Made by a program: the position numbers and the translations under genes. A stretch of DNA of 64,000 nt from Phoronis australis (taxonomy: Eukaryota; Animalia; Phoronida). The stretch is taken from the NCBI GenBank assembly GCA_002633005.1, contig NMRA01000236.1, positions 26,686 to 90,685 of the forward strand. Reading direction: 5' to 3'. This document shows positions 14,411-56,916 of the stretch, piece after piece. Below the pieces are notes generated by a model, which was not told where the DNA came from, searched no databases, and saw nothing but the letters and a program-made list of their open reading frames with translations. Every line of letters begins with the position of its first letter. The first letter of the stretch is position 1.

Positions 14411-14924
14411 TCTCCCCGTTTCAAAAAATAATGTGTACAACTACAGACATTTTTTATTTTGTTCTAACCAAACTTGTCATATTTACGACTTAACTAAACG
14501 CATCCGAAAATACAACTCTTCCACAAACATACTCTAGGAACCTCACTCAAATCCTAGACAAACTCTCGGCAATAATATTATCCTTTCCTCTGATGTGTCG
14601 AACATCAAGATCGAGCTCCTGCAAAATGAGACTCCACCTAAGTATTCTCTGCTTTTTCCTTTCATCTTATTTATAAAAACTAACGGGTTGTGATCAGTAT
14701 ACACAATCAACGGTGAACTCATAGAGGAGACATAAACTTCGAAATGCTGCAATGCCAGAATCAATACGAAAGCCTCCTTTTCAATGGTTGAATAACAGCG
14801 CTGGTTCCTATTGAACTTTTTAGAAAAATAACACACAGGGTTATCTATGCCTTGAGCATCTTCCTGTAACAAAACTCCACCTGCTCCAACATCAGAAGCA
14901 TCAACAGCCAACTTAAATGGATTA

Positions 14925-19295: not shown

Positions 19296-20619
19296 TTACA
19301 GAAATCAGGAGCAGCAAGCACAGGCTGGGTAGACATTTCTTTCACATTTTCAAAAGCCTTTCGGCATGCATCATTCCACACAAACTTCACTTTACTTGAA
19401 GTAAAACCAGTCAAAGCTAATACAACCTCAGAATAATTTCTACAAAAACGTCTATAGCAACCGGCCGAATACCCAGAATTCTAGACAAAGACTTCTTGTT
19501 AGTGGGAGTAGCAAAAGCCAAAATAGCTTCAACTTTAGCTTCACGAGGTCACACTTTCCGTCCTCCATCAACTTGACCTAAAAACGTCACAGATGCATGA
19601 CCAAGACCACTTTTCGCCAAATTGACAGATAAGTTAGCTTCAGACAAACGCTCGAAAAGTTGTCTTAAATCACACAAATGTGATTCCCAAGTAAAATTAC
19701 TACCTATAATGTCATCAGTGTAAACCTGGACATTAGGTAGACTATTCAGTACAGTATTCATGACGCTAAATCGTCGTGAGAGAACCTCCGGAGTTGGTAT
19801 ATGATGCAACTCCGGACGGCCTGGGGTCAACAGAAAACCACAGTTCAACTGTGAGTCTACACCAATGTGACAAACGAGAGTAGTTCTACTTGCTACGTCA
19901 GCTGCAGGTATGCTTATCTCTTTTATGACACACAATGCGTGACTGGGCAAAGCGTTTTCAAAATAATGTGGATAAATCAGCGGAGTGTGAGACCCCTGAG
20001 GTCCCTGTCAAGTCCGTTATGCATCAATCTCTGAAAAGCCGCGGCAACATTTTTCATACCGAAGGGCATAACACAATACTGCCACAAACCATCAGGGGTT
20101 GAAAATGCAGACAATTCTTTAGCTTGCGCTGTAAGTGGAACCTGCCAATACTCTTTTAACAGATCAAACTTGCTTACAAATCCTGCACTTCTAATACGAT
20201 CAATACAATCGCCAACCCTCGGAACAGGGTACGTATCACCCTTGGTCAACAAGTTCAATTTCTTGAAATCAGTCACAAACCTTACAGAATTGTCAGGCTT
20301 CTGAACAAGGATGCATGGAGAACTCCAATTACTCTGACTTGGTTCAATGATTCCATTATCCAACATATACTGAATCTCATTTTTCATTAACTCCAATTTA
20401 GGGGGAGAAATTCTATAAGGGTGTTGCTTAACTGGATCAGCATTTCCAACATCGACAGTTAGTTTTTCTAGGCACATCTGGAATTCACTGAATTCCCTTA
20501 AAAGACTTTGTAGTGAGTGTTGCTGATCAACGTGCAAGTGACTCATCTTCTCTTGCAAATTGTTAAGAAACTGCGAGTTGCATAACTCGAGCGAAAAACT
20601 TAAAGTAGGCCCTCCAAAT

Positions 20620-23152
20620 CAGTCTTATGTGAATCAAACCCTCAGTGGTACATGATTTCAAGTGGCTCACATGCATAAAAGTTGCACAGGCAAAAGACTT
20701 CTCATGGATCCTGTAAAGGTAGTCGGTTAATTTCGCAAGAATTAAATAGAGACCACGCCAACCCAATCCCAATTTCTGTTGAGCGATGGGTGGGTACCAC
20801 GTATCAACAAAACTTCCAACCTCAATTTTTTTGAAAACTGTCTTAGAGTCATAACAAGTTTTCAGCCACCTAGAACTGGTAGGTTCTCCCTAGCATATTC
20901 AAATGAGTTCTGGATAGATAGCCTAAGCCTCCCAACATATTGAACCAAGCTTGACTTAGAGGATTCCGAATCCGCCTTCACATGCCCAACCATAATATCA
21001 ATAGGAAGTGACACGTCGCTTCCAAAACTCAACTTGAATGGAATGCAGTTAGTACTGTCAGGAACAGTAGATCGGTAAGCCATCATAACATATGGTAAAT
21101 GGTAATCCCAATCCTTATGGTTATCATTCATAAACGTTTCGATTAAAACGCTCAATCACACCGTCACTCTTTGGATGATAGGGTGGGGTTCTAGTTTTAC
21201 TAATTCGTAATTTCAAAGTTTACAGCATTCAGCCATAAGCTCACTCTTAATTCTTTACACTGATTGCTATGCGAATATTTGGGAACACCAAACCGACTAA
21301 TAAACTGAATCATCACAGTGTCTGCAACAATATCAGCAGTGTGATTAGGTATACTATAGGCTTCTCGACCCATTTACTAAAGTAATCACCAACAACTGTA
21401 ATGTACTTATTGCTATTTTCTGTTTCAGTGCGAGGACCCATGATGTCATTACGTTGCAAAGGAGCGCCAACATCACTAGGCTTGAGAGGGGCATAGCCTC
21501 GTCCTCGACCTGGTTTCCGATGTGTGCACATGTCGCACTTGCGACGCCACCAAGTGGCATCTCCTAATAACCCTGGCCAGTAACATCGTGACCTAACAGC
21601 TTTTAAAGTTCTCTCCCTACAAAGATGACCGGCCGTACGATTGTCATGCAAAACCTTCATGATTTCACTTCGCAGAACTTGCGGAACCACTACCACTAAT
21701 CGATCCCCTGGACCATCACTATCGACCCATCGTCGATGTAAAACGCCATCTCTAAATTCAAGAGAATTCCATTCACTCATGAAACGTTTGGATCATCTAT
21801 CATAACCCCTACCGCCGATTTCGTCAACAGACGGTTTTTCTATCGAAGCTTCTTTTCTTAAAACAATAAGACCAATGGCCGAATCATGGAGTAGTAACTT
21901 GCGCAGTTCCGCTGAACTCCAAGTTTGCAACCAAACACTAGAGTCACTGGATTCACTACTAACCTTACGTTTTCTACATTTTGGCATAGTCTCCTACACA
22001 AAACAACAATTTGCGCTTTGCTGGAAATCTTCACGCTAACGTCACCGGGTTTTCCTAGAAAAATCATTAGCTTTCCCGTGAAGGCTGCCCTTACGATGTT
22101 TAATTTCAAAATCATAAGTGTCCAAAATAACAACCCGTCTCGCCACTATATCAGTAGGTTCCTTAAGATTTCTTAGCCATCTTAACGAACTATGATCTGA
22201 TCTCAGCATAAATTTCCTATTCCATAGTAATGACGGAAATGTTTTACACACGTCACCATGGCCAATAATTGACGATATGTAGTACAATACCCCTGCTGAG
22301 ATTTAGACAAAGTTCTGCTTGCGTACGCCAGAACTATCTCTTCACCATTCTGTACCTGAGACAAAACACCTGAGATGCCAAAGGCACTCGCGTCTTTGTC
22401 AACAATGAACTCACCACCGTCACGATCGGGAGATCACAAGTTAGGATGATCAGGCAACGCATTCTTCAGCCTGTTAAAAGACACCTCACACGAGTCATCC
22501 CATACGAATTTTGCTTCGACATTGTCGTCAATGGGGCAGCGATCGTTAAAAAATCGGGAATGAACTTTCGATAGTACGAGGCAAACCCAAGAAAACTCCG
22601 TACATCGGTGAGACCTATTGGAGGAGACCAACACTCGACTGCTTTAACTTTTGCGGGGTCACAAACTATACCATCTGTTGAAGCTACAAGTCGTAACAAG
22701 ATAACCTAGCCTTTAAACAATGCGCACTTTTTAGGTTTCAGCCTCAAACCAGCGTTATGTAAACGAATGAAAACTTGTTTTAAATCATCGAATGTCTTAG
22801 AATAACATAAGACATTGTCTGCGTACAGTAAACACTTATTCTATAATAAACCCTCTAAAACATTATCGATCAGTCGCTTAAACCAGCCGACGGAGTTACA
22901 AAGACTAAACGGCAAGAGTTTGAATGCCCACTAACCACGACCAGGTGCGAATATGGAGTTTTCTCTCTTACCTCTTCCGCCGGCGGGAACTTGCCAGTAG
23001 CCACTAGCCAAGCCAAGTCAAGCGATGAGAAAAACGAATTACCACTCACCTGATCTAAACACATATTTATTCACGGGAGCGGAAATGCATGTTTGGTTGT
23101 AAAAGAATTCAATGCTCTAAAATCAATACAAACTCTCCTACTTTTCTCACCC
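20620..23152 (-). mobile_element. Conventional-order Gypsy pol remnant (RT - RNase H - integrase), no LTRs seen
   Basis: RVCIDFRALN..FSSLDL, VRSFLGFASYYRKFI, RSDHSSLRWL, HDNRTAGHL..YWPG..CDMC, GDYFSKWVE, WDYHLPYVMMAYRS, and GPY/F-like WRGLYLI..HVSHLK. Confidence 0.85.
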
Positions 23153-23575: not shown

Positions 23576-25170
23576 CAAAGAAGAACAGACATCGCATTAG
23601 ATTTGAAGATTCTTTGACTTGGGTGAGTAGGTCTTTGAGCGCCATACAAGCTTTAGCATAGTGGGTGCCTGACGAGCTTACTTGATGCGTGCTTTAATCT
23701 CCTCTTCAGTTCCTCCACTCGTGCTAACGACACTTCCCAGGTAAGTAAGTTGTATGACGTTTTCAGTCTCCTCATCATCCAAGACAACATTATTTACTTG
23801 TATAAGCATCGTCCAAGTCTCGGTGATGATGGACAGTCCTACTCGTTCAGCAGTCTCTGACAGTGCCGCTGTCCTACTCAAGTTTTGAAAGCGATGTGAC
23901 ATAAGTCATCTGCGTACTCCAGATTGTCTAATCGTTTTGTAAATGTTAATTGGATTGCCCCGAAAAAGCAACCCTGATAACCCGGTCCAGAATTACTAGA
24001 AACAGCAAAGGAAAGAGAACACCCTTGCCTGACTCCTGAATTAACAGAGAACCGTTGATTCAGCTGTCCTTTATGCAGCACCTGACATTTAAAATCTTCG
24101 TGAAGTCTTGTAACTAGTCTGACAATTTCCTCAGATATACCATAGTGCCTCAGAATCTTCCTGGTAATGCTTTGGTCAATACTATCAAAAGCCTTACGAA
24201 AGTCTAAAAAATGAATGTAAAGCGAGGAATTCCACTTAATTGATTGTTCGATTATAATTCTTAGAGTTGCGATCTTGTCCGTACATGAGCACTCTTGGCG
24301 AAATTGTGCCTGTTCATCACAAAGTTTGGTGTGCACCACGTCTTTAACTTAGCAGGATCCTAGTGAAGATTTTGGTAGGAATAGAGGAGAGTGATACCCT
24401 GCCAATTCGTAGTGTGTGAAAGGGTTCCTTTCTTCGGCAGCTTCACTAAAACTCCTTTATTCCAGTCCTCGGGTAGCGTTTTGTCTCTCCATATCTTGTT
24501 CAGCAGGTCATGTAGAATGGCCTCCATTACTAATAGCTTCTGGTGGTATATTGCCTAGTCCAGTGCCTTTCCTGTTTTCATAGCCTTAATGGCGCTTTGT
24601 ATTTTAGTTCTGCGGATCTCGTCGGTTGATATATCTAAACTGTCCACTGCTTCTTCTGGTCGATGGGCGCGGGATTGTCCAACACGCTAGAAAAATGGTC
24701 TCTCTAAAGTTCCAACTGTTTCTCGAGATCAGTAATATGCGTTTTGCCTTCATCCTTGAGAGGCTTAGTTCAGTTGAAACGTCCCCGCTGATCAGCTTCA
24801 TTGTAGAGTAAAGGGTCTTGATATCGCCTTTCACTGCAGCCTCTTCTGCTTTTGTTGCAATCTCCTCAAGGTGCTGACTTTTGTCCTTCCTGATGCACTG
24901 TTTAACTACCTTATACTTCTGTTGAGCATTTTGGTTCTGCAGTCGTGTTTTTGCATGAAGTAATTTTTTCTTTATTAGGTGTGTCCGTTGTTCAGGATTG
25001 ACAAGGTATCATCGGTCATCCTCGCCTTTTAGTTCTTCCTGGGCTCACTAAGTGGTCCTTTGCATGCTCTTTTTAGCCTTGTCCATATCTGTTGGATATT
25101 AGGATCTGGGGTGCTAAGTTTTAATGCCTCGAATTTGTTCCCAGGAGTAAGCCAGAATCCAGTTACGGTG
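23576..25170 (-). mobile_element. RTE-clade LINE reverse transcriptase remnant
   Basis: EQAQFR..SCTDKIATLRIIIEQS, FLDFRKAFDSI, GVRQGC, LEYADD and TYLGSVVS..GGTEEEIKARI. Confidence 0.88.
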
Positions 25171-25959: not shown

Positions 25960-26193
25960 AATAGTAAAACTAGTAAAACTAAAATGACGAGCGTCGGTAC
26001 TAAAATATATTAGAATATCCCCACGTATCGAGCGATGCGCATTTTCTCAAGGGTGTGCTACAGACTGCTGAATACACGTGGACAGATCTAAAATGAAATG
26101 GCACAGGGAACCACATAGTGACATACAATAAACGTGAACAATATGAACACAACAGGAGATGGCACCTACCAGTGGGATAGGCCTACGTATGAC

Positions 26194-26235
<42 letters not shown>

Positions 26236-26710
26236 GAGAGAGAGAGGGAGAGAGAGAGGGAGAGGGAGAGGGGGAGACAGAAACCCTATGTCTCTGTTTA
26301 GGCCTCTGGCGTGAGTGTTAAACTTTGCGATGAATTCAGCCTCGCATTTTCTGCGTGCGTAAATGTCCGACAGTCCGCCTTTGACTACAAGTACATAGAC
26401 GTCACTGGTAGTATGGCCTGGGAGATTGAAATGTTCCCCAATGGGGACCGCCCTATTATTGTGAAGATAAACATCTTATTAGATGTGATAAATGTCCCCA
26501 CGCGTGGTATTTTTGGGAGACATGTAACTCGTTACGCACTAGAGTGAACGGCCATAGGCAGACGATCCTTCACAATAATAGATCTATCCACATGTATTCA
26601 GCAGTCTGTTGGACACCATTGAGAAAGAGCGCATCGCTCGATACGTGGGGACATTTTAATATATTTTAGCACCGACGCTCGTCATTTTAGTTTTAATAGT
26701 TTTACTATTT
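25960..26710. mobile_element. Fold-back/MITE with ~130-bp inverted arms and an internal (GA)n tract (26195-26278)
   Basis: 25962-26090 is the reverse complement of 26579-26708 (aaaatgacgagcgtcggt..cccacgtatcgagcgatgcgc..agatcta). Confidence 0.8.
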
Positions 26711-26719
26711 CATATGACA

Positions 26720-28765
26720 TGACTCAACCTCGGGCAATAGGTGAAATGGAGGTGGAGGAAGCGAAGACTTGTGTTTTTGCTATTCGCTTTTCAGTCCGTC
26801 ATTTGTTTCTTTAATCCACGGGTGAACGCATGGACTAAAGCATTCACTGAGCTCATTGGTTAACATTTGGATCATAAACTGAGCTCACAAGATTGCTGGC
26901 GATTTGATTCGTTGTTGTTAGAGGAAGGTAAAAACAGATGAATGGTAACAAGGCCGTTTGCGGTTTTCAAGACGTGTCAAGGGAATTCTATTTTGTTAGT
27001 ACTAACATACTGAACAAAAAATTCTTCATTCTTTTGGTTTATATACATTTCACCAAGTGGTGAAAAACCCTTCGGTGGAACTTCAGCTTTTGTTAAGACT
27101 GAGCTGAGTATTGGCTACACTAAATCAGTTTGACCGTCTGGAAATTACACGTCTGTTTTATTGTTTGTCAAAAATAATCTCCACGGGAAAATGTTCAATC
27201 TCCTGAGGAATATTTATGCTGAAGTGAAATCTTGTGTGAAAAAACAGAGCAAAATCGCACGCTATTTTGAATGTAAGAAATGTGTGAAACAATGGTGTAT
27301 ACTGAGTTCTTGGTTATTCTCTGTATTTGTAAGCGGATTGGTGTCAGAGGTCAAAAAATGGAGGATGAGGTATCAAGTGTGATGACTGTGAATTAAGTTC
27401 GTCACTGTTTGTGGACGATTTGGTGCTTGTGGCGGACACAGTCCCTGGACTTCAGAGAAAATTAAATGTACTGCACAATTACTGTGTGGAATGGAGTCTT
27501 TGTGTTAATCTTGATAAGACAACTATTGTTGTCTTCAAGCGAGGTGGGACTCTGTCGACACAGGAAAAGTGATTCTACAATACGAAATTGGTAGAAACGA
27601 AATCGTATTACAAGTATCTTGGTGTGACATTTTCTTCTAGATTAAAATGGGATGGAAATTGTAGAATATCAGCTCTTTAAGCTAGAAAAGCAATGAACAC
27701 GTTAAAGCACGTTTAACCAAAATGAAATGTAGCTCCCCACATGTATGTAGGAGACCAACTGAAGACGACGGTTGAGCACAGTTCCATCAAGTGTTTAAAG
27801 TAAGTTTTTAAATTGTTTGGTAGTATGGTAGTTCCTATATTGTTATATGGTGCCGAGATATGGCGTACAGTACATTCAAAAGACATAGAAAGTGCTCACA
27901 ATAATTTCTGTAAATGGGTTGCTGGTGTCCCAAAGAAAACAAGTAACGTTATGGCCAGAGGAGAATGCGGCAGGAATTTATTATCTGTGAAATACTTGTG
28001 CAGACCAATAATCTACTGGACCAAACTTCTACAGATGAATAACCCCAGATACCCAAAGAAAAGTTACAGGATGCTACGGGAAGACTGTGAAAAAGGACGA
28101 GCAAATTGGGCCAGTGCAGTTAAAGACATTTTATTCAGATACGGGTGTGGGGAGGTAAGGATAGGTGGACCGGGTAACATCGATGTATTTATATCAGAAC
28201 TTAAGCAAAGACTGTTGGATTGTGGTGCTCAAAAATGGAGGACATCAGTGCAGAGCTCTAGCAAGTGCTCATTTTACTCTATTATCAAAACAGATTTACC
28301 TAGTGAAAAGTATCTTTACTGTCTACCACCAACTCTACGTAGAATTCTAGCCAAATTCAGGTGATCTGGACATCAATTGAAAATAGAAACTGGTAGGCAC
28401 CACGACATTCCAAACGAAGATAGACTTTGCGAAATTTGCAACCGTTCAGAAATTGAAGACGAAATATACTTATTACTTAACTGCCCCATACTTAACGATA
28501 TTAGAATGATTTTTTACCAGAAATATTCCGACAGCGTACTGACATCGAAAACGCCAAACAAACCCTGGAAATCTTTTGAAAAGACTATCCTTATTTGTGT
28601 TAAAGGCTTATGGTATTAAACAGGAAACTCTAGCATTATAATGTATACATATGTATGAAGGTATTGAATACCTGGTCATGAAATTGCCGCCTGTACCAAA
28701 TACTGCAATGTAGTATGTACAAAAATGAGCTTAGCTCCAAGTACAAATAAACAATCTCAATCTCT
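26720..28765 (+). mobile_element. RTEX-like LINE remnant in intron 2
   Basis: LFVDD, YKYLGV, ILLYGAEIW, ARGECGR, IETGR..RLCEIC..IEDE..LLNCP, and the tail aataaacaatctcaatctc. The 5' boundary is approximate. Confidence 0.78.
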
Positions 28766-30606
28766 CCCTGTCCCTCCCTCCCTCTCTCCCTTCCCCCCTC
28801 TCTCTCTCACCCGACACCGGGCAATCCTCCCCAAAAGCCTTCTGCTCACGTCACTGTCCATTACCCTATACGTTGACCACCTCCAACCTTAAAAAATTGA
28901 TTACTCGGCAGAATATTTTATGAGTTGCAAATCAGCAACTAAGTATGAAGGTTTTACAAAATGTTTTTGAAATGATATCTCGACTCCGTAAATCTGAGAA
29001 TTGTGATCGGTTTATACCAGACTCAATAAGTTTCAGGCGACATGAACGTTCTGACCCTGAAACCGAAAATTCAAGAAACTGACACGTTGACTAAACTTGT
29101 TTAAGCAAATTTTTATAGTCATTTTCATTTCTGACACATGACAAAATGTTAATGACATCGTTTTGAAAGCTTTCAGATAATGTAAATGAAGAGGTTGTTT
29201 TCTACACACTGACAAGGACATAGTTTACAACCAGATTAAGTTTTCCACGAGCCCCAATCGGTATCCTGCCTCCCGTTCAGTAATACTAGGGCCTCGCTAA
29301 AAAGCAAGACTTCGCGAGATTGCGAGAGACGTTGCCGTGTAATTTAAGTGGTAACACTTGACGTTGGCTAGATATTACCTAGGTTCTAGCGTAGGCCCTA
29401 GCGTTACTGAACGCACGCCTGGCTTCGCTAGTTCCGTAGGTGCGCCACATAGGGAGTTCCACAAAACTTCCGGTTGCTGAGCTTGAGGCAATTGAATTAT
29501 AATTTTGAATAAATAAAATCAATAGGCAGCAGTGTGAGAGACTGATTCTGTGAGTTCTTGATGGATGTCACCACAATAGAAACTTTGACCAAAACGACTT
29601 TCTTTTATTTGTAGTAATTGATTCTTTTGCGCATGAGCTGGAGGCAACTTAAGGAGGCTCACATTCGCCCCAAAACGAGTCGGGTGCTCGAGACCCCCGG
29701 TCGGCCACGGAAGTCCATTTAGACTTAGTTCTGCGGGACGTGGTGACAGAAACTATTATATTCACTCCCATTGTCTTTGTATTTTTGTTTGTATTTGGCT
29801 CTTATTGGGCAAAATGAAACTTAAAATCACACCTTTTCACGCTTGATGGGACCCATTTGAATTTGCGTTATAAATCGCGGCTTGACATGATACTTTTGTG
29901 GGGATTTAAACTGTAAAAAATGCTTATTGTATTAAAATTGAATACAAGGCTATTTTGAATTGTGGCTTCGATTCTTGATGTACAACACTGTGCTGTGAGT
30001 AAAAGAAGTAATAAACTCCTTTCATAGGTAGCTCTCCAACCCCCACCCCTAAGGTAAATGTAGAGAATCTAGTAGCCACCTGATGAAAACACCACTCCGC
30101 GTCCCGCAGTATGATCCACGAGTTTGATAAGCACTCATTCAATGAAGTGACTTCGTAACACAAAGTTTTCAGACGACTTCCATTCATGACAGCCAATCAC
30201 GACAGATTTAGATCAGTCCCTTCGTTCCCGGTCACCTCCTTAGACCCCAAACTCCCTCCCCAACATCAATCCCCATCATATTTTGTCCTGATCGCCACCC
30301 ATTCCCCGCAGCCGGTTTCTGCCTCCTAGTAACTTGTTCACTATTCTCAACAACCTAGATGAAAGTGAGAAAATTCTTAATCTACCTTGACGACAAAGGT
30401 GAGCATTTTCCGTTTCCAAACCGTATGTACGTTTGATAGTAGTATAACTATTGGTTGTGTTTTCTGACTCTCGCAAACGTTGGCTCCTGTTAAATGAATA
30501 AAACCCGGATGTTAGACGTGACGTATAGGCCATGTTTTATGTAATTTTATGATAAATGCAGAACAAGAAGGAATGTGTTGTAGAATCCAAACAAGACAAT
30601 ATTTAC

Positions 30607-30982
30607 CTTCCACTGGCCACTTTCGTCACGCAGAAATTGCCAAACTCCATTTTTCTTGTACTCTACCCGATACGAAGTGACAAACTTCTCTTTTTGTGTC
30701 GAATCTCCTTTGGTCACAATCCCTGTCACTTTTCTAACCTGACCAAGGTCAAACTCTAGAAATTGCGCATGGTCCAATACTTCCGGAGACCAGCCTCCGC
30801 TTTTCGATCCATTTCTAGTTCTAAATATACGAGCCCTACTCGGTCCCGTATTTAAGTTCAGAGAGCTCGACACCGTGATGCTTTGGTCAGGTATGGGTTG
30901 ATTCCCCGAGACAAGCAGTTTGGTGCACGGGTGGGCATTGATGTCCTCAATTTGCNGAACTCTGCGACTGGACTCCTCGTGT
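30607..30982 (-). CDS. Exon 2 of the discoidin gene (end of pro-region + N-terminal part of FA58C)
   Basis: Acceptor tttgtctctgtcag and donor aag|gtaaat. Motifs IPDQSITVSS, GPSRARI, GGWSP, QFLEFDLG, VTGIVTKG and FVTSYRVEY. One N at 30956. Confidence 0.93.
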
Positions 30983-31801
30983 CTGACAGAGACAAAGCTT
31001 AAGTACACAATTTCAACCAATCAGACACGATCTGAAGGGCGAGGCCCATAGCTCCTAGCTTCTGACCATATTTGGCCATGTCCAAAGGACTCAACATCAT
31101 AGGAAAATTCCATACGTAATACACAGCTTGACCACTAGAGGGCGCATTTATCTTACTTACATAATCATGTCCAGGGCACTCCTGTTACACTACATTACAT
31201 GTGGTCCGTAATACTAGACTTAGGTACGCGTATACAAAATCTCCATCTTAGATAAAGTGAACGACATCATCATTTATTAGTTTTCTTGTCTCGGTTCCAT
31301 GAAACAGTCTGAAGTATGAACTAAGTTAAGTTCTCTAAATTTTCTACGTATTTGTTGACTTGTAAAGACCCTGATTATCCTTTCTGGTGCTATTTTACTT
31401 TCATTACTAAAACATTTTTTGGCTTTGATAAAAAGAGAGGGCAAAATTTAGGTTCAATTCTCAACATTATTGAACATAAGTAGGGACCTTTTCATTCAAC
31501 GTACATAATATGAGGACCAATGAACAAATGGTACTGTTGGTCAGAGAGGATGTCACGATGAAGATAATATGAAAGGAAAATATTACATTACAGATTTGAC
31601 TGGCCGGGTGCATTGAAGACAGCCAGGTTTCATTTGGTCTTGTTCACATTTAGAAGGCGATTATGAACTTCTTATTTGCCCGAGCTTTTGATTGGTTGAA
31701 TGACGGTATACGTGCTCTTGAGGTCTTGTGTAATAGTTCAAGCACACTGTGAACTATCAGCCAATAAGAGAGTGAATTGCACTAGAAGCTTGTCTGTAAA
31801 T

Positions 31802-45808: not shown

Positions 45809-46953
45809 ACAAGAGTAACGCGGAGCGTTGAAATGCGACCACGAATGCATAGCAAACTGAACGGTGTGCTTTCAGGGTTACTTAGTTGCATCATAAAAAT
45901 GGCCACTAGATGACGCTAAAACGGACAATCCATCCAAAAAATAGGAACTTGCCATATTTCATAAAACCTGTCAAGGAACGTCAGAGAAACAATGGAAAAC
46001 AGAATAAAATGAAATTGCCATTAGTGGGTACAGAATCCGTTGGATCCGCCTGAAGTCGTCGTCGTCTGCTGTTATTTTAATACAGCTATGGGTGCAAAAA
46101 AACTGCCACTAGGAGGCGCCACAGTAGTCAGTTGCCATCACCAAACGTCCTCTTCACACTGAGAACATTTCAATTTTCAAAACCATCCCTAGAAGAATTT
46201 GGTTGATAGAGGGGTGGACGTCAAAACAGGGTTTGAAAACAGGAAAAATGGCCACTAGGTGGCGCAAGATACCTTGATTACATCCAAAAACAGAAGAAAA
46301 GCGTCATCTCTTCACTGTGCCTGTATTCACAATTTTATGAAAATCTGTTGAGGACCTTTGAAGATACAGAGGTAAACGTAAAAAACTAAAATTGCCACTA
46401 GGGGGAACACCAATGGTCAGATCCGTCCGGATGTCGTCGTTCTTTGTTGTCAAAATCATATAAATACACTTGCTAAATTAAGTAAAGATCCTGCAAATGG
46501 TTTAGAAAATACATAGCCATGAGCGAAAAAAAAATACCAACAGGAGGCGCCACAGTAGTCGAAATCGTCGGAAAATCATCGTCAGCCGTCCACTTCATAG
46601 TAAGAACATACATGACAATTTTCGCAATTTCCTTTGAGCGGTTTGGTTGATGGAGGGACGGACGCCAAAAAACTGGAAAACAGCAAAAATGGCCACTGAG
46701 TGGCGCAAAATACCTCGAATCCATCCGGAAACGATAGGATAGCGTCACCTTAAATGCCTATGTGCCAAATTTCATGAAAATATGTAGAGGACCTTTCAAG
46801 ATACAGAGGCAAACGTAAAAAACTAAAATTGCCACTAGGGGGCACAGCGGTATTCGGGTGAATCCGAAACTCGTCGCCCTCTGTCATCAACCCTATAGAA
46901 ACACGCCTGCCAAATTTCAATAAGATCCCTATAAATATGTGGGCGCATAAAAA
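45809..46953 (-). mobile_element. Helentron-associated HINE/DINE-1-like element with a central tandem array
   Basis: Same ends as 59364-61117 (tttttatgcgcccacat ... cgcatttcaacgctccgcgttactcttgt) and ~145-bp subunits. It lacks the (GTCC)n tract. Confidence 0.75.
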
Positions 46954-48867
46954 TGCGTATAAACGGCGAACATATAGTGACTGATTTTACACGACAAATA
47001 CCCGAAATTGGGGTTTGAAATAGCAAAATTCAGACACCTTTCCGAAAGAATGCTTGCATTGCTGACAAAGTTTTTTTGGTTTCATTTCAAGGGCATGGAG
47101 TCTTCTACATGCCCATGCTAATTTTTTCAGTTTTCTCGTGGGGGCAGCTGAGATAGAAGGTTATAACACCCAGGCCAACCCGCGATCGAGAACGCCCGAA
47201 AGGCGATAGAGAACGAGACCTTGAACCAAAAATGGCAGACGACAGTTACGTACCCGGTGAGTTTAAATGTCATTTTCTGCTTAAATTGAGGCTACTTTGG
47301 TACGAATGCTACACACAGAAAAGCGTCAGAGTGTAACTTTTGTTGTGGATCTGAAATAATACTTGGTTTTTGCTTATTTTTAAAATAAAGAGCTCAGAAA
47401 GCAATGGCTTTCGGTAAAATGCCTTGCGCCTCGTAAAATCGACAATTTCTGCTTGTTCTTAGCAATTCCAGGGTTCTTAACAAGAGACGTGTGACGTTTA
47501 TAGGGGCCTAGTTTAACCGTCTCTGGTGACACCTTTGTTAGTTATGATTTGTGAAACAATTTGAGATATTTATCAATACAAACAGGTCTTTGTGTGAGAC
47601 AGCGATCGGGAACGACGTCGTTAATTCTCTATGGCGATCGTGAACGTACTTTTTTTCTCTGCAATGGCCTGAATAGTCGTTCAAGTTACGGTATTACGTC
47701 AATAATTTTAGAATAATACGGAGCCTGAATTAGTTGATGGGTTGATTATTAATTACATTTTATCGATTTTTATCATGATTTCTAAATGAGATTTAGCCTA
47801 ACCAACATATTCTAACTGAATGCGTTGGATTTTTTTCAGTTGACCTGCAGCTACACCACGAGTCCTTCAGGGTGTTAACGTTCATGCATTCAAAAAAAGA
47901 GTAGTACAACTGCTGCATGTCACAAAGGAGTGCGTGTAGAGCTTCGTTCGGGAACTAAGAAATCGACTTAGTATGACCACATGACAATAAAACACAGTGA
48001 CACTTGAACAAGCAAGACCTTTACCAACCCTGCACGCGTTGCATACGTCATGCAAACAGTATGCCTTCTTCTACAGGCATAGCAAGCAGAAACGTCATGA
48101 CTGAAATCATTAAGTCCAGTAGATTTAAATGGCCATACTAAGTGTCATACGGCAATACTTACATACAATTGTTCTGACCAATCAGTATTTTAAAAGAAAA
48201 TTTATGTCTATGATAATTGTAGAAATTGCTTTCTGATAATTGTAGAAATTGCTTTCATATTGTTGTTGGTTTCCTGTGAGAGACTATCATACTATCAATC
48301 AGTCCCAAATACATTGTCTATGATTCAGTGATGATTTCGTCTGTCAGAATATAGACTGGCACTATTTTTAGTTGTATTGTTTTGTTTTGTTCTGTTTGAT
48401 TGGCATGACCCCTGAGTTAGAATAGTATGGAACTTTCTAGAAAACTGAAGTCACATAGGCGGATTTAGGGGGGGGGGCTGCCGCAAAAAAGCAGCAAGAA
48501 CGTAGTGAAATGATGAGTTTATTAATTATCCGCGGTAGTTAAAATTATACGGCTGAAACAAGATTTAAATGCGTGCAGTTTTAATGTTGGGGGGGGGGCT
48601 CAGATCCAATTTCAAGTGTCAAATTCGGAAAATAGCGCAATCGTAACGGAACTACGGCTAAGTATAGGCTCTCCCGCGCTATCTCAGGCGACCGGCAGTG
48701 GCGCTGGCTCCTCTGTGCAATGAAGAAAATTACTTCATTTTTTAAAGAAACTGGAATCTGAGTGATGGTGAAAAAACAGAAGCTGCTGGTAAGATGTCAA
48801 TTTTAATCGAAGCTTTAGTGAATCACTCAGAAACTTATAATTCTCTCTTTGTCAAACCTTAACTTAA

Positions 48868-51800
48868 GAGCACGTCCACGAATGGACCAGGCAAAAAGTG
48901 ATAAAGGCAATGTCACGGATTTCCTCGATTGTTTGCATGATGGTAGGGGTTGATGCCCCAACCTTCATACCCACATTAATTTTTTTACGTGCGCCACCTT
49001 GTGGTTGTTATGGGAACGTGTTGTTTTTCTGCCAATTCTAAGCCTCGTTACAGCTACATTTTGGCACTTTTTGCGAACTTACCTTGGGAACAATAGTGCA
49101 AAATGAAATACTTCAAGTTTATCACTGAATTAAAATGTCTTTCAACTTGGCAGTCATAAAAAATATCACGGTTTCAGTTACATCTTAGCTATTTTTGAAG
49201 GCTACCAGTTTAGCTAGTTTGTGGTGATTCCGAAATGTTGAAAATTGCCCTACTTCCTGCCTCAATATCTCAGCTGAAGCCAAATTTAAAACAACAAAAC
49301 TACAACCAGTGTTTAGATTGATCTTAGCTCTACAAAATAAAACCATAAAAAGTCTAGGAAATTACCCTTCTTCATACCGCATCGGGCTCTAGAAGTAGGG
49401 TACCTCACGAAAATTGTACAACTGACCAATGTCTGCACAGTAACAAATGTATGCGAGGATTCAAAATTTGAAATCTTAAAATAGGCGATCGAACATATCA
49501 AGAAAGCTTTAATTTTGCTACTTTACAGAAAAGAATGAGAAGCACAACAAGGCACGTTGGTTTCCTTTGACCCTGACGATAACGCTGACAATAGCATGTG
49601 CATATACTCACCGTTTCAAAATGCATTATGGTTGAGTAAAAAAATCAATAAAGTAAGTCTTCAGTAATACATAACTACGAACTCGAATTCTGAAATTTTA
49701 ATGTGTGGGTCTGATTGAAATTTAGTTTTCTAATGTTCTCGAAGTCGGTTGATCGTGTCCCGACGCATCTCAATTCAACGAATTTTATAAAAAACAATAA
49801 TAGGTGTATTGGGCCGGAAGGAGACAACTGCATCTCCATACAGTGTATATCACCAAACCCGAACAAATCAGACAGCAAAGTAGTTAGTAATAAAAAAGAG
49901 ATATATTGAAATGGTATGGGATAGATGCTGTGAAATGAGGGTAGAAAAACTGATCTTGTAAGGACAATCGACTACCTGTGAAATTGGCGTTATTGAATAA
50001 CTTTTCTTACGCTTGTCTTTCGGGAAAGTACCCGAACAGCACACGCCCAGATGTGCATATGGATGTCTGAATATTCTCGCATTATGGATACCAATGTTTT
50101 TTTTAGTTTTTACCCACAACGCATAGATATATTTGCGGAAGGTTCGTAGACATTTTCATAAAAAACACAGGAGACCGAGTATTTCACACGCAAGATAGCA
50201 GAAAAATCAGTTCAGATGTTTTTTTTTGGATCTATCACACTTTCAATGGCGGATTTCGGGAGGGCGCCAAGGGGGCCATGCACCCCTAAAATTATCCCAG
50301 ATACCATTTGTAAGTTCGGGGTGCGAATTGTTGACTAGCATATGCGCGCACCCAGGGGCTCCGGGGGCGAATGCACAATGCATTGGCCTTGAACAAACCC
50401 GTTTAATGGATTTTCTTAGTAATAAGGTCTACAAACTCAAAAATTCGAGACCCCTGCATCCCTACTTTTTAGGGTGGGCGCGTGGATGTGGCGAAATTCT
50501 GTGCCCTGACCCCCCCAAATCAAAATCCTGGATCCGCCCGAGTTTAGTATGGGAATGGAATGGTGTTTGGTGCTTACCATCAGTCCAAAAATTCAGAAGT
50601 CTCGACACTAATAGATGTAGTATCAGCTACTTCATCGAAAAATCATAAGACAATGCAAGTTCAGCAAAACGAATTTTTAAAAATACACAAACATTCAGAC
50701 TGCATATAGGTGAACTTGAGTAATCCTGCAAAGAGATTTTGGAACAAAGTTGGGCAATATTTAAAAACTGTCCTGATTTAAATTATTGTTTATTATGTTA
50801 GACATAGAGATGCAGCAGAGCAGGTTATACTGTACTTATGTAGCAAAACGATAAGATAGCCAATCATTAAACAAGCACCAAAGTAGTTTAGAGAATAGTA
50901 ATATTATATTGAGGCTGATATAGGACACAGGCAAATTACACACCATAAATCAAGTAAATAGAAAAGAACAAATGTGGTCACATTTACATAATGCGAGAAA
51001 ATTAGGTGTACAATGAGACACCTTTAGTCAGCACAGATGACACGTCACGAAATAGAAATAGCATTTTGTCTGACTACTTTTGACATACTATATTTCAAAT
51101 GTCTCTGAGTCTTGTATACCTGAAATGTGCTACTGCGGCAATTCCATTGACTCAACAATCTTTTGTCACAGTCCAAATCGACGGTCTTCCTCAGCGATTC
51201 TTTTCATTCCAAAGGCATCAAACTGTGCGAGTTTCCCAGGTCGATTGAGTGCTGCTAAACGGGAAATTATTTAATCTGCTGAGGTGAGAGACATTCTTCA
51301 GAACATCACTATGACCAGGAGCAATACATTCATGGGTTAAAGATAATGCCTTGCTGGCTTTTTGTTTGTAATATCGCTAGGACCTTTCGGCAAATTCATC
51401 GATGTCAGTTAGAAGCTGGGTCCTAACAGGGTTGACTCTTCCATCAGATGCAGCAGTGAGAAACTGATTCGACTTATGGATCTTTGGCAAAGGCGTGGGC
51501 AGCCAAAATGATGGTTGGTCCCCCTCTCGTTTCCACTTGAAAATTTTGCCTGTAAATATTACAATTATATGCAACTTAATCCGTAAACACAAGAATTATA
51601 CTTTCAATAAATAGCCTTTCCCCAAAGAATTTATTTTCACCATTCAAAATAGCTTGGAAAGATGGCCACTCACATATGCATGCAACCCTCATTGTGTGCA
51701 AGCAGCACTCAAAACAAAAGGTGTCGTCAATTAATCAAAATGTAAGTTCACTACTAAAACCTGGAAAACCATCAGTTTTAATATATAACATTGCCATGGT

Positions 51801-54524
51801 TTCGAAATGCCATAAAGTTAAGACAAGATACAACACTCGTCATGCCACGATGCTGATTGAGAAAATTTTATGTTTTAGTACATGATTTTCAGGCTAAAGG
51901 GAATACAATGCATCTTCAATATTTTTTGCTAAATGCACCTTTCAAAATTTGCCTCAGTGGTGACTATCACAACCCCGAGCAACTATAAAAATCCTGTTAT
52001 GACCTACTTGGAGTACCTAAGCTTTCATTTCAAGCAGTCTTCCATCTCAGAGGAATTTTCAAATGTCTACAGTTGTGGTGAAATAACTGGCACAGAACTA
52101 AACAGATTGTGCACTTATGAACATAGTTCCTCACCATAAACATAGTTCAAGGTCTGTTAACGCTATCCACTGACTCACAAGTTCTGGCCCAAACTCGCAA
52201 AACAACTTATGCGCCCAAAAATCACTGTGCGTGGAGCCAAATCCACTTTGTCTGAGAGACACGGTTGACAAGATAGTAAATTACAAAGTGTTTTGTCTGC
52301 AAATACAAGGACAGTGTTACAGTCCATCAGTAATGTTTCCTAGCAGATGAGTTAGTGAGACCGTCACCAGTTTTTGAGTCAATGTGCAGTTTACAAGCCC
52401 ACCAGCCCTGTTTATATTTGAGGCAATTTGCAAACCTTTTAGTTACATATTCCTGTAACTATGGACAACTTGTGCAGTAAAACTTCCGAGACGCAAAATT
52501 CACTGAAAGCACGGCATTTTATTTGTCTACGAGGTTTATAAGCAAGCACAATACAACTGAAATAAAAATCTACTACAACTACTGTTTTGCTATCATTAAA
52601 TGTTGATGCACTTAATCCGGGAACCAAGAATCTCAGAAAAAGGTTTTGTGCAACAACACTCCAATTCATGAACTAACTACTTACAAGTACTCTTTCTGTA
52701 GTAAGCTCAACAACAGTGGCTAACTTCTTTGGTAAACGCTTACAATTTCTGCATAGACCTGCAATAGAATTTTATGGAAGTAGGAATAACAGAACTCCTA
52801 ATACAATGCTGTATTTTGAATCCCCAAATGCTTTCCCCAGTCTTATTCTTGAGGTTGAATGTTTCAGCTACTAGGGACCCTAACGTTGTTAAAACTTTAG
52901 CCATGTTAATTAAATTAGGCCCCATTGTAATGGGGTTCCACTGCATATTCGGAAAATTATGTATCTCTGGTTATACAGATAGAGCAATGTGACCAATCAG
53001 AAGTGAGTACAGGTGAATTAGATGAGAAATTGGTGTCAGCTAGGAGACAAGGGCTTGATTAAATCTTTTGATAATGGACACCAAATTTCCACTTCTTACA
53101 AACGCATATTCATAAAATGGAATGTATTTCGACAAACCCTAAATATTGAGATGAAGTGAATATTTTACTAAATTAAGTCAGTACTGGAAAAAGTTACTAA
53201 AATTACTCTAGTACTCGGGTGTCGCTTTACTTCATGTAGGGTTGTGCCCTTCCTGGCGACTGCAGTCGGAATCTAGTTGAAAAAGCAAATATAATAAAGT
53301 CGTTATCAACAGGTATAGAGTATTGATGACCTGCAGCTGCATAACAACTTACCTGACCCAACTGGAATCGATACATTCTGTTCTTCCAGAAATTCTTTGT
53401 TGACTGTATTTCCACTTACATTCCAAACTCTAGCTTGGTCTTGGACTTAAAGCCTTTCTGATGTTGAAGGTGGGCACATATCTTACTTTTACTTGGCCTC
53501 CATCTGATTCCATGCTGAGATCGACGTTTTCCACAAACTGGGGGGGGGGGAGACTGTTGTAAACAAGCCCACTCTGACCCTGGCAAGAATCAGCTACCAC
53601 TTTCGGTGACTTTAACATAATTCAAATGGTTTGCTATGGACTTGCTGCAATCAGTTAGTGCTTCAATTGCTTGTTGCATGGTTTCGATATTCATTTGAAG
53701 CTCCATAAACCAGATTTGAAGGATTATGCCAACGAATTACACACTATAACTATTTCATCCACAGCCATTTTTTCTTCAGTGTTATCAGAGAACCTGTAGG
53801 GGTTTTCATCAAAATGGTAATTCACAGTTTAAAAAGAACAAAAAATACTAATTTTATTGAATTTTATTTGCTAAGAAATAAGCCCAATAATTTAACAACC
53901 ATTTGAGCGCTTTTAAATCTCAAAATTCAACATTTTTGATGACTAGTAGCTATTGTCACAAGTGCTCACTTTGCCTGAGGTGGCTGCGAACAATTGCTCA
54001 TTACTATATGAAGACATGTGTTTGCCGGTGGTTTTGATGGCAAATATCTATTCTACTAAGATAGATAAAACCCACAATTAAGTTTCAAAGTGTAGAATTT
54101 GGCTTCAGCTGAGATTGACTCATTCAAACCTGGGCAAGTTATCCATATTTTCTGGTTGTATGACCCCATGACCCTTCAAACCCAAAATGTGGAAGTTAAG
54201 GTGCAACTTGACACTTTTATTTTTCATTTTTAAGAAGACAATGGATGACTTTATACAAAACAGTAGCTATTTCATTTTCTAGTAGCTTCTGTAATTACTT
54301 ACAATGTCACAAAACTGTGATTATTGGGGTAAGTTCTGATAGTGGTTTTCAGTGAAAACTGAGGTACCCGACTTTTAAGCAACCTAACGCGATAGAATTT
54401 GTTTAAAGTGCATTTTAGTAATTACCATAAGAAAGTAAACAAAAATGCATAATATGATCCAAATCCGTCACAGGGTTTATCACCCCTGTATGTATTTTTG
54501 CCTGGTCTGAAGTGTACTGCATTC
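48868..54524. mobile_element. Kolobok-like element (TTAA TSD, GA..TC termini) with a decayed minus-strand multi-exon ORF
   Basis: TTAA at 48864-48867 and 54525-54528. The TIR gaccaggcaaaaa..gtgataaa..tgt.acggattt and the subterminal ctcagctgaagccaaatt occur at both ends. Confidence 0.75.
50244..50540. mobile_element. hAT5-like MITE, same family as 41556-41715
   Basis: caatggcggatt..cccctaaaatt.tcccagat.ccatttg..caaaatcctggatccgccc with flanks acttt/agttt. Confidence 0.7.
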
Positions 54525-54668
54525 TTAAGACGATTTCCAAAGCAATTGCGTCATTAATGCCAACACAAAAAACGCATTTGGTCTTTTGGGCGATTGTAGA
54601 CTATTTTAAATACAACAAATTTGTGGACCATAAATAAGTAAGTTTCTTAGTTTCTAACTGGAGTTAAA

Positions 54669-54739
54669 TCCTGGTGGTGCAGTGGTAAAGCACGCGCGCT
54701 CAATCCGCTAGGTCGTGAGTTCGAGTCCGTAAGACCTGC
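54669..54739 (+). other. tRNA-derived (SINE-head-like) fragment
   Basis: A box TGGTGCAGTGG and B box AGTTCGAGTCC at tRNA spacing. The acceptor stem does not pair. Confidence 0.55.
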
Positions 54740-55929
54740 AGTTTTTGCTGGTTGACTTTCTTCGTTTTTTATTGCCTTTTTTCTTGGAAAATACTTCGGG
54801 AATCAAGGAAAATGCTTGATTTTTAGAGGAAAAAACAAAAAAATTTCCTGGGCGGGAGGAGCCCCCCTTGTGATATCCTAGATCCGCCACTGGGTCAGTA
54901 CAATGATGATGTCGTTTGTTTACTACAATATAGTGAGAAACTTTCTAGAAAACTCTAGCATGACAGTGATTAATGCAGTCTGGAATATTCTAGAGACTAG
55001 TACATGTTTTGTAGAATGTTTGGGTAGATTCCGGAAAATTCTGGCATGTGCTTGAATTGATGAAAAGTTCTAGAATATTGCATTAGTCTATAAATACCCA
55101 AGCACGGTTTTGTATTAGTCAGTTAATCAGCAGTTAATCAGAAGAAAAACAGTTAAGCAGTTAAAGAGTTGCAGTGAAGGGAATCAGCAGTTACAGCGAG
55201 AGTCAATAGAGAGCCAGCTATAGAGACAGCAGGTTATTGAATCGGCGAGTGTAACAGTTGCTGGAAGTGTCTCAGAAGTTCATCACAAGTCAAGGCTTCG
55301 CAGCACTGGCTGGAGCATAGAACAGACATTACGTCTGATGTTTTGTTTAAGTAGGCTTGTGAACGTACGGTCGAGATTAATAAAGGATTAACTCGAACCA
55401 GTCTTCAGTCTATCGTCGCACCGAAAGCTATTAGCACCGGTCTTTAACAACCTGCGCCCACCCACACACGGGGAAAAACGTGAGATAATCTAATACATTC
55501 CAAAAGTAATTCGTAGGAAATGTTGAATGGATTTCTAATGTTGATTTCCCTAAAGCAATGTTTTATATATTTTTGTATGTCTTATGACCAGTTTTTAGGT
55601 ATATATGATAAAAGATTAGTATTATAATAGAAATGCTATAATATTGTTGTTGATTTCCTGTGTAAATCACAAAAATGTGTAGTTGAAGTTACGTTAATGA
55701 CAACACGTTGACTACGTTTGAGAAAATCACAATATAATATGTGTATTAGAAGTGTCTCAATCTTTTTCAATGTCACATTAAACCGGAGATCATGAACTGC
55801 TGATGCAGGTGAACTTAGGACCAAGACTACAAAACAGAAGAGTCAAACACAACGTACATTCAAGCTACACGGATGCCACAAGTCAATTTATCTCTGTATC
55901 GATGTTATCAGTAAAACATCAAGTAAAAT

Positions 55930-56700
55930 TCCACCCATTTTATCAGCACACCAGTTTACGCAATTTCTGGCCAATTTTTAGATCCCAGACGTTTGTGAGT
56001 GGGAATCTTTGAAGCATCTCATGAATGGTGTTGCTGCACTCCTCTCTCTCCCCAAATGCAAGCTCATCATCATTCTTTGACTTCACTGGCTATTTGTTTT
56101 TTTCCCTTTTATTGTCACAATTTTACATGAAGATTCTACAATCGCTTTCATCTGCTGCAACAATTTGTTTACCCCTGCAGCCGACAGGCCACATGGGACA
56201 ACTCCTGGGTGAGTCTTCAGTTTAGAACCCCTTGTTCTCAATGGTTTCGTCTAAAATTAAACGTCTGTATTTTAAAACCCTGGTAGGGTGTACCTTCACG
56301 TCGTGGGTAACATGTTCGTTGAAACTCGTTTCACAATAACAGTGAACTTGTTTCCTGAAATGAAACGAAAATTATGCTTGTTGTACATGTATTGTGCTCA
56401 TGGCAATTTAATGGAAATATGCTATGTTGCTGTTCAACAGAAAGGCGTCGAAAAATAAGAAATCCTGACAAAACTACAAAAACAAGCGTTGCGTTATATA
56501 TTCACACGTCATTTCTTCATAACTTCATGGTCAATTTATTAATTTAGTGCCAAAAATAACGGTAATTTGCCAAAGTGACATACAAATCCCCTTCGGCTCA
56601 TGCGATGCCTCGGTCAACGTAACTTTTCTCCAATTATTGGAAGAGGCACTAGCCTAAACCTCTACCTGCCGTTCTTCAATGTGTTACGCCTTGAACTCAT
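55930..56700 (-). pseudogene. Spliced pseudogene resembling the RAG1 N-terminal (CND)/Chapa zinc domain
   Basis: Exon 56700-56666 plus an exon from 56354 give one frame: MSSRRNTLKNGRKQVHCYCETSFNEHVTHDVKVHPTRVLKYRR..F*TEDSPRSCPMWPVGCRGK..KLVC*. Confidence 0.5.
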
Positions 56701-56916
56701 GTCTCTGTTTCCAGATTGGAAGTAAAAACAACACAAATTCATCAAATTTACTCACATTACCTGGCTTCCCTTCTCGCGCCAAATTTCGTTCTCGATCGCC
56801 CTCCGGGCATCTCGATCGCAGGTTAGTCGGGGTGTATAACCCACTGCTGGTTTTTCACAAGCATGGAAGGTACCTCCACTGAACCAGTTCCAGTGTTACC
56901 ATGGTAACCGATATTT

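What the first reader, a model, noticed from the sequence alone, without database searches (positions are those of the whole stretch)
47167..56834. Candidate decayed RAG-like transposon: CAC TIRs, 5-bp TSD, two convergent spliced units, RAG1/Chapa-like zinc domain
Seen: ~52-bp TIRs starting CACCC, each carrying two GCGATCGAGAACG-like motifs (two more near 47602 and 47634), flanked by a duplicated TATAA. From the right end, a minus-strand spliced frame reads ..VTHDVKVHPTRVLKYRR..TEDSPRSCPMW..RGK..KLVC. Single-base changes (TAC>TGC, GAC>CAC, TGG>TGY) plus one lost codon restore the D-x4-HP-x3-C-x2-C ... H-x-C-x2-C-x-RG pattern. From the left end, a plus-strand unit starts aaaATGGCAGACGAC..CCCG|gtgagt (47232) and resumes after ttttttcag at ~47840 (VDLQLHHESFRVLTF.., later ARPLPTLHA). 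Established: that zinc pattern belongs to the RAG1 central non-core and Chapaev Chapa domains. ProtoRAG/RAG-like transposons have CAC termini, 5-bp TSDs and convergent RAG1L/RAG2L genes, whereas Chapaev elements make 3-4-bp TSDs. Inference: this is an internally deleted RAG1L(-)/RAG2L(+) element, or a Chapaev-like lineage with an unusual TSD and a second gene. No DDE core survives, and the RAG2-like match is weak.
Basis: partly seen in the sequence, partly recalled or inferred. Interest (0 to 1): 0.8.

Follow-up and report, generated by a model that had tools for sequence, protein, structure and literature searches.

The report
Decayed RAG-related passenger transposon
A many-copy 2.5-kb jumping-gene remnant, split here by 7 kb of later insertions, has CAC-tipped inverted ends, a five-base insertion footprint and a broken, spliced piece that likely encoded the zinc domain shared by RAG1 (the antibody-gene recombinase) and Chapaev transposases, so it is likely a passenger derived from a RAG-like transposon, although the proposed RAG2-like partner gene is unproven.

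Summary
The element is real. It has ~50-bp TIRs at 47167/56834, TATAA on both sides, and a ~2.5-kb core once 48340-55488 is removed; other copies join across that insert. An empty allele of the flanking repeat carries one TATAA. In other copies the base after GTG is A, not T, which favours CAC ends with a 5-bp TSD over the 3-bp parse. The minus-strand unit is transcribed, and 2 RNA reads skip the predicted intron 56755-56355. Its exon resembles the RAG1 NZD/Chapa domain; one other genomic copy reads S-C-S-I-C-G-V-S-A-R-G where a C-x2-C was predicted. No DDE core or parent element was found. Verdict: a non-autonomous derivative of an NZD-bearing transposon, RAGL-type (55%) or a 5-bp Chapaev-like lineage (27%). 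The scan has noted gene-less CAC/5-bp elements in other genomes, none with look-alike sequence.

The parts
47162..47166 (+). Left target-site duplication TATAA
   Evidence: an empty allele of the flanking repeat has a single TATAA (table 5c, joint 47149->56832)
47167..47216 (+). Left TIR (~50 bp, starts CAC) with two GCGATCGAGAACG-type repeats (47182, 47203)
47232..47256 (+). Putative first exon of an inward-facing plus-strand unit (ATG 65 bp from the end, MADDSYVP, donor GTGAGT at 47257)
   Evidence: sequence only; splicing not tested
47602..47646 (+). Two internal copies of the TIR motif
47840..48090 (+). Decayed putative second exon (acceptors 47839 or 47850); by-eye likeness to the RAG2L-B N-terminus, not statistically supported
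   Evidence: published alignment; motif tests; no hits; 47848 is T in other copies
48340..55488 (.). Nested later insertions (7,149 bp), absent from other copies; inner layers at about 48449-54892 and 48863-54523
   Evidence: joints 48339->55489, 48448->54893 and 48862->54524 (letters between not known)
55943..56354 (-). Second exon of the minus-strand unit: decayed NZD/Chapa-like remnant (F-x6-D-x2-VHP at 56323-56285; S-C-x-M at 56203-56192; RG at 56176)
   Evidence: alignments
56355..56755 (-). 401-nt GT..AG intron of the minus-strand unit
   Evidence: 2 RNA reads in run X6 join 56354 to 56760 with 4 letters between; GT/AG ends
56786..56834 (-). Right TIR (starts CAC); in other copies nearly identical to the left TIR
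   Evidence: X6 loose end at 56808, 11 reads
56835..56839 (+). Right target-site duplication TATAA

Best explanation
This is one copy of a multi-copy ~2.5-kb element with CAC-tipped ~50-bp inverted ends and a 5-bp duplication, likely an internally deleted, non-autonomous derivative of a RAG-like (RAG1L/RAG2L-type) cut-and-paste transposon that would have been moved in trans by the parent's transposase. Shown: the ends, the duplication, the many copies, the later nested insertions, and a minus-strand transcript spliced across 56755-56355. Inferred: the minus exon is the remains of the RAG1L N-terminal zinc domain (NZD/Chapa), with the DDE core deleted. The inward-facing plus unit, which starts 65 bp from the other end, is likely the remains of the second gene (RAG2L position). 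The parent transposase would bind the repeated 13-bp motif and the CAC tips, cut there and insert with a 5-base stagger. The surviving transcript is likely non-coding, since this copy has stops in all three frames.
For: TIR, TSD and motif statistics. Empty allele with one TATAA and a 12-letter spacer of the same length as here (one row of table 5c). Base after GTG is A in 11 X6 reads, agreement 0.84. Up to 46 DNA contigs per position over the right arm, and joints across the insert in 4+3+4+2 contigs. Minus-strand RNA: first mates lie on + about 3:1 over 55900-56361, and 2 reads carry the predicted splice. F-x6-D-x2,4-[VI]HP occurs once in 127,996 codons of the window, here (post hoc). NZD motif chain ranks 36 of 846. 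One X1 contig reads S-C-S-I-C-G-V-S-A-R-G in register (33 letters table 5c, translated by hand); S-C-x-[IVL]-C occurs 5 times in 127,996 codons. It matches the C3 pattern of published RAG1L/Chapaev alignments. RAGL elements have CAC ends, 5-bp TSDs and convergent genes. RAG2L starts 56-111 bp from its TIR in P. imbricata, and an AT-rich TSD (TAGTA) occurs there. Non-autonomous RAGL of 0.7-2.6 kb are described. Transib lacks the NZD and Chapaev makes 3-4-bp TSDs.
Against: No hit for the minus remnant in Pfam, the PDB (only a chance WD40-like match), 1.84 billion representatives or two word searches; its model is unusable (pLDDT 40). The C1 motif is missing, and neither Cys of HP-x3-C-x2-C is present here or among the majority changes shown. 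Rank 36 of 846 is only about p = 0.04. The intact C-x2-C comes from one contig; most copies lack 2 bases at 56178 (47 of 55 and 23 of 28 reads), which closes that frame before RG. RAG2L: a priori motif chain ranks 818 of 846; six post hoc variants rank 295, 158, 542, 193, 14 and 623 of 2114; no kelch GG motif; no hits. The TIR does not fit the protostome RAGL consensus CACTWMCAAACKTYKBB and is longer and repeat-bearing. RAGL TSDs are usually GC-rich. TSD length is reported to vary from 2 to 5 bp within one Transib lineage. Both flanks were seen for this copy only.
Confidence: 0.55

Rival explanations
1. It is a deletion derivative of a Chapaev-type (Chapa-domain, CMC-core) transposon lineage that makes 5-bp duplications; the plus-strand unit is a non-RAG2 accessory gene or non-coding.
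For: The Chapa domain is shared by Chapaev and RAG1L, and their folds are predicted to be alike. The spacing from the C2 block to the C3 block is short here (18 codons from 56269 to 56215), as in the Chapaev rows. Long TIRs with repeated internal motifs differ from the 13-17-bp RAGL core. RAG2L tests are negative. TSD length is labile in related lineages.
Against: Chapaev is described with 3-4-bp TSDs, and Chapaev3 with TWA between A and T; the right flank TATAA fits neither. A search for Chapaev with '5-bp' listed 2 papers, and the passages read describe no such lineage. A second inward ATG/donor unit at the RAG2L distance from the end is not expected.
Confidence: 0.27
2. It is a gene-less Transib/CMC-type passenger that captured, or resembles by chance, a Chapa-like fragment (for example from an N-RAG-TP-like element), so the remnant says nothing about the mobilising enzyme.
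For: All database searches are blank. The motif rank is modest. An element made only of RAG1 N-terminal-like sequence is reported in Aplysia (a review passage). The scan has noted several gene-less CAC/5-bp elements.
Against: The remnant is the second exon of a transcript whose first exon starts at the TIR, the layout expected for the element's own transposase gene. The C-x2-C-x4-RG in another copy falls where it was predicted.
Confidence: 0.13
3. The true ends are one base further out (ACAC...GTGT) with a 3-bp ATA duplication, making it an ordinary CMC (EnSpm/Chapaev) non-autonomous element.
For: The sequence allows this parse, and the empty allele cannot tell the two parses apart.
Against: In 11 X6 reads the consensus base after GGGGTG is A, not T. 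Chapaev and EnSpm termini are described as CAC...GTG.
Confidence: 0.05

Closest known systems
RAGL transposons, families A-D (ProtoRAG of Branchiostoma, PflRAGL-B/C, TransibSU, oyster and nemertean RAGL) and their non-autonomous derivatives (PMC7204232, PMC4411706, 10.1101/100735, PMC10629977)
   Same: CAC ends, 5-bp TSD, inward-facing units from both ends, an NZD-like region near one end, a start codon close to the other TIR, and the size range of described non-autonomous copies (0.7-2.6 kb).
   Different: TIRs are ~50 bp, nearly symmetric, carry a repeated 13-bp motif and lack the CACTWMCAAA consensus. The TSD is AT-only. There is no core and no demonstrable kelch/PHD gene. The TIR words were not found as a TIR in the supplements of four papers.
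Chapaev and Chapaev3 (CMC) transposons (PMC4079192; 10.64898/2026.01.24.700457)
   Same: CAC...GTG termini and an N-terminal Chapa zinc domain.
   Different: 3-4-bp TSD (TWA for Chapaev3) against 5 bp here; no second gene mentioned in the passages read.
Transib and non-autonomous Transib (Hopper/Kodama; 10.64898/2026.08.26.747230)
   Same: CAC ends, 5-bp TSD, and deletion derivatives moved in trans.
   Different: Transib transposases have no NZD/Chapa domain and the elements carry a single gene.
N-RAG-TP of Aplysia (seen only as a passage in the review PMC8355894)
   Same: A transposable element that holds only RAG1 N-terminal-like sequence.
   Different: Its TIR and TSD were not seen, so no direct comparison was possible.

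Membership tests
RAGL transposons | 5'-CAC termini | tested here: met
   base outside GTG differs in other copies
RAGL transposons | 5-bp TSD | tested here: met
   TATAA/TATAA, empty allele, terminus; both flanks seen for one copy only
RAGL transposons | RAG1L N-terminal zinc motifs C1-C3 (NZD) | tested here: inconclusive
   C3 intact in one other copy; motif rank 36 of 846; C1 absent, C2 cysteines absent; no profile hit
RAGL transposons | RAG1L catalytic core (RNase H DDE, CTT*) | not testable with these tools
   Absent from this copy; no parent found; no genome held
RAGL transposons | Convergent RAG2L kelch(-PHD) gene | tested here: inconclusive
   Geometry fits; by-eye motifs only; motif tests 818 of 846 a priori and 14-623 of 2114 post hoc; no hits
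RAGL transposons | Heptamer plus A-rich TR2 TIR consensus (CACTWMCAAAC...) | tested here: not met
   CACCCAGGCCAACC against the consensus; note that says RAGL families share only CAC
Chapaev / Chapaev3 | CAC...GTG termini | tested here: met
Chapaev / Chapaev3 | 3-4-bp TSD (TWA between A and T for Chapaev3) | tested here: not met
   4-bp and TWA parses fail on the flanks; the 3-bp ATA parse needs ACAC ends, disfavoured
Chapaev / Chapaev3 | Chapa domain | tested here: inconclusive
   as for the NZD; by-eye comparison
Chapaev / Chapaev3 | CMC-type DDE core | not testable with these tools
   core absent; parent not found
Transib (canonical) | CAC ends and 5-bp TSD | tested here: met
Transib (canonical) | Single gene without NZD/Chapa domain | tested here: inconclusive
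   An NZD-like remnant argues against but is not proven

The most novel reading that the evidence does not exclude
The parent is an undescribed two-gene lineage bridging Chapaev and RAGL: an intron-containing NZD/Chapa transposase that makes 5-bp duplications and recognises long, symmetric, repeat-bearing TIRs instead of the heptamer-TR2 end. It would carry a convergent second gene (divergent RAG2L or another accessory protein) and may still be expressed in this animal. A hint: a distinct expressed variant, 9 and 12 reads at agreement 1.0, leaves the alignment at 56166 and reads C-G-M-S-A-R-G-K-Q.
Probability: 0.2. Interest if true: 0.75.

Novelty: new variant of a known kind. Interest (0 to 1): 0.42.

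Why it matters
RAG-like transposons are the ancestors of the V(D)J recombinase, and how the N-terminal zinc domain, the second gene and the RSS-like ends came together is still debated (PMC4411706, PMC8355894, 10.64898/2026.01.24.700457). This copy is dead, and non-autonomous RAGL derivatives are already described. Its TIRs, though, are a ready probe for a parent that seems to combine an NZD/Chapa domain and a 5-bp footprint with an end design unlike the RAGL TIRs seen here. If that parent is RAG1L/RAG2L, it widens the range of ends that such enzymes recognise. If it is Chapaev-like, it removes TSD length as a diagnostic between the two groups.

Tried and rejected
No own genome is held, so full-length copies and paired TSDs could not be tabulated. 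Minus-strand remnant P0001 (stops as X): no hits among longer or similar-length proteins, in 1.84 billion representatives or in Pfam; the PDB gave only a chance match to the designed WD40 repeat Tako8. A single-sequence model had pLDDT 40 and Foldseek gave nothing at E <= 0.001, which is uninformative. A language-model feature search of this remnant was not obtained. All six frames of both arms gave no Pfam family beyond one E = 0.63 match. Plus-strand frames gave no hits in proteins or the PDB (best E = 1.5, CFAP52). TIR pattern scans: 1 match in metagenome contigs, a chance match without the TIR repeat (L001), and 0 in viral and prokaryote collections. The idea that the left exon and intron are just a mirror of the right arm was tested and rejected: beyond the TIR the arms are no more alike than controls (28, 68, 224 and 200 of 300 window segments score as high). 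An NKRRVT stretch at about 47481 resembles the RAG2L basic motif, but it is out of frame with the first exon and overlaps a 9-mer found at the same distance from both ends, so it was not counted. Two incompatible by-eye RAG2L alignments can be drawn in different frames, which shows how weak such matching is. No RNA holder was listed for the stretch in the index. Paper supplements were searched for the TIR words without a TIR match. The P. flava and P. miniata TIR figure of 10.1101/100735, bioRxiv supplements and Repbase/Dfam could not be seen, so the family may already be catalogued there. No look-alike sequence among the scan's earlier findings.
Full report
1. Observation. The inverted repeats are real. 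The ends at 47167 and 56834 both start CACCC and are 82% identical over 50 nt; the alignment of the two terminal 60-mers scores 70 against at most 41 for 18,202 other window 60-mers. GCGATCGAGAACG at up to 2 mismatches occurs 5 times in the window, all inside the element, against 0.45 expected (post hoc motif). TATAA flanks both ends; by composition a 5-base identity has probability about 0.0012. The quoted peptides and splice signals are present, but the two plus-strand peptides lie in different frames.

2. It is a multi-copy family with a 2.5-kb core. No genome is held, so I used public runs of one organism label, whose best DNA runs hold about a fifth of the sampled words. Contigs of three DNA runs from one sample and one presumed RNA run cover both arms. 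They join 48339 to 55489 (4, 3, 4 and 2 contigs; letters between not known), and inner joints 48448->54893 and 48862->54524 show nested layers (15 of 781 joints shown).

3. TSD and termini. One X1 row joins 47149 to 56832 with 9 letters between (table 5c, 12 of 326 rows shown). Read with the next three bases, this is an allele of the flanking repeat with a 12-letter spacer and a single TATAA, as expected for an empty site. That does not separate CAC/5 bp from ACAC/3 bp. In run X6, 11 reads leave the alignment at 56808; their consensus (agreement 0.84) gives a right TIR nearly identical to the left one, followed by A rather than T. This favours CAC ends, and hence the 5-bp parse for this copy. 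The 4-bp and TWA parses fail on the flanks. Paired flanks of other copies could not be read.

4. The minus-strand unit is transcribed and spliced. In two raw RNA runs (18-19% of each read), first mates lie on + about three times as often as on - over 55900-56361, for example 57 against 22 and 32 against 8 at 56197-56229. This means minus-strand RNA if the libraries are of the usual stranded type, which is not on record. Two X6 reads join 56354 to 56760 with 4 letters between, removing exactly the GT..AG stretch 56755-56355. No such joint is listed for X5, and much intronic sequence is also covered. In other copies two changes make the donor CAAG|GTGAGT.

5. Is it a RAG1 NZD/Chapa remnant? Against: nothing in Pfam, the PDB, 1.84 billion representatives or word searches, and an unusable model. 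Most copies lack 2 bases at 56178 (47 of 55 and 23 of 28 reads, 9 contigs), so in them the frame ends before RG. C1 is absent, and the first Cys of HP-x3-C-x2-C would need two changes. For: a chain of five short motifs taken from the published alignment ranks this exon 36 of 846 blocks, and F-x6-D-x2,4-[VI]HP occurs only here in 127,996 codons (post hoc). One X1 contig, matching this copy on both sides, carries 33 letters that read S-C-S-I-C-G-V-S-A-R-G in register (translated by hand). Counting from the D at 56215, it has the H-x2-S-C-x2-C spacing of RAG1L and type I Chapa domains; whether it has His at that codon is not shown. A Cys is about 3.5% of codons, so this is an independent, though single, confirmation. 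I put NZD/Chapa ancestry at about 80%.

6. RAG2L. The geometry fits: the ATG is 65 bp inside the left end, against 56-111 bp in P. imbricata RAGL. By eye, YVP, DLQLHH and LPTLHA recall [FY]IP, DLELKH and LPPLHG in RAG2L-B. But the basic motif and both GG motifs are missing, several deletions are needed, and two incompatible alignments can be drawn. The a priori motif chain ranks the region 818 of 846; six post hoc variants give 14 to 623 of 2114. No database hit was found. The left arm is not a mirror of the right beyond the TIR. Plus-strand splicing was not tested with raw reads.

7. Mechanism. Shown: ends, duplication, copy family, nested insertions, and a spliced minus transcript. Inferred from the families involved: an internally deleted element moved in trans by a DDE transposase of the RAG1L/Transib/Chapaev clade, which would bind the repeated 13-bp motif and the CAC tips, excise the element and insert it with a 5-base stagger. 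This copy has stops in all frames of both arms and cannot encode the enzyme.

8. Comparison. RAGL elements have CAC ends, 5-bp TSDs and convergent genes, and non-autonomous derivatives of 0.7-2.6 kb are described (PMC7204232: part 1 of 8, passages, supplement 2 whole, supplement 7 parts 1, 2, 10 and passages, supplement 8 passages for 19 of 26 places, supplement 9 search only). Their TIR consensus is not met here, although families are said to share only CAC (10.1101/100735, parts 1-2 of 4, figures not seen), and their TSDs tend to be GC-rich (PMC10629977, passages and supplement search). Chapaev shares the Chapa domain (PMC4411706, parts 1-2 of 4 and supplement passages; 10.64898/2026.01.24.700457, part 1 of 6 and passages) but makes 3-4-bp TSDs (PMC4079192, passages). 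Transib lacks the NZD, and TSD length varies within one Transib lineage (10.64898/2026.08.26.747230, passages). I also saw PMC9435367 (part 1 of 2 and supplement search), PMC12730594 (passages) and PMC8355894 (one passage). I found no description of these TIRs in eight library searches and four supplement searches; Repbase, Dfam and bioRxiv supplements were not available. Earlier scan notes describe gene-less CAC/5-bp elements in other genomes and a different RAG-like element in this genome; they are unchecked and were not used as support.

9. Verdict. A real non-autonomous transposon family that works like a RAGL/Transib passenger. It should not be filed as Chapaev (TSD not met), and it is not confirmed as RAGL (RAG2L inconclusive, core absent, TIR consensus not met). 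Odds: RAGL-derived 55%, 5-bp Chapaev-like lineage 27%, captured or chance fragment 13%, 3-bp CMC element 5%. Novelty: new variant of a known kind. Interest 0.42; its value lies in leading to the parent element.

Noticed in passing
window 48340-55488: Russian-doll nest of at least three later elements: an outer one, a middle one with CA(G/TA)(T)GGCGGAT-type ends at about 48453 and 54892, and an inner one with CTTAAGA ends at about 48864 and 54528. Further inverted pairs lie at 49267/54115 and 49390/54377.
   Followed up: partly
window 47140-47166 and 56835-56900: The element inserted into another repeat, whose empty allele is seen in X1 contigs.
   Followed up: partly
window 46000-46930: Diverged ~437-441-bp tandem repeat at very high depth in the DNA runs.
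   Followed up: no
window 48243-48278 and 55628-55662: 36-bp direct repeat (89%) inside the element on either side of the nested insert; some copies join 48265->55717.
   Followed up: no
window 56166 (loose ends in X5 and X6): A distinct expressed variant (9 and 12 reads, agreement 1.0) diverges from this copy across the C3 region; a candidate transcript of the parent or of a sister family.
   Followed up: partly
window 56433 (X5, X8): Other copies carry a further TIR-motif copy inside the minus-strand intron.
   Followed up: no
window 30550-31020 (-): Exon encoding an F5/8 type C domain (Pfam E = 3.7e-14); its nearest Atlas clusters are eukaryotic. The host looks like an invertebrate animal (inference).
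   Followed up: partly
window 2362-3135, 10104-10499, 14546-14956, 19552-21792, 23881-25008, 26050-26475, 27804-28361: Open frames that look like retroelement fragments (RNase H, reverse transcriptase, integrase, GIY-YIG-like); labels are by eye, not searched.
   Followed up: no
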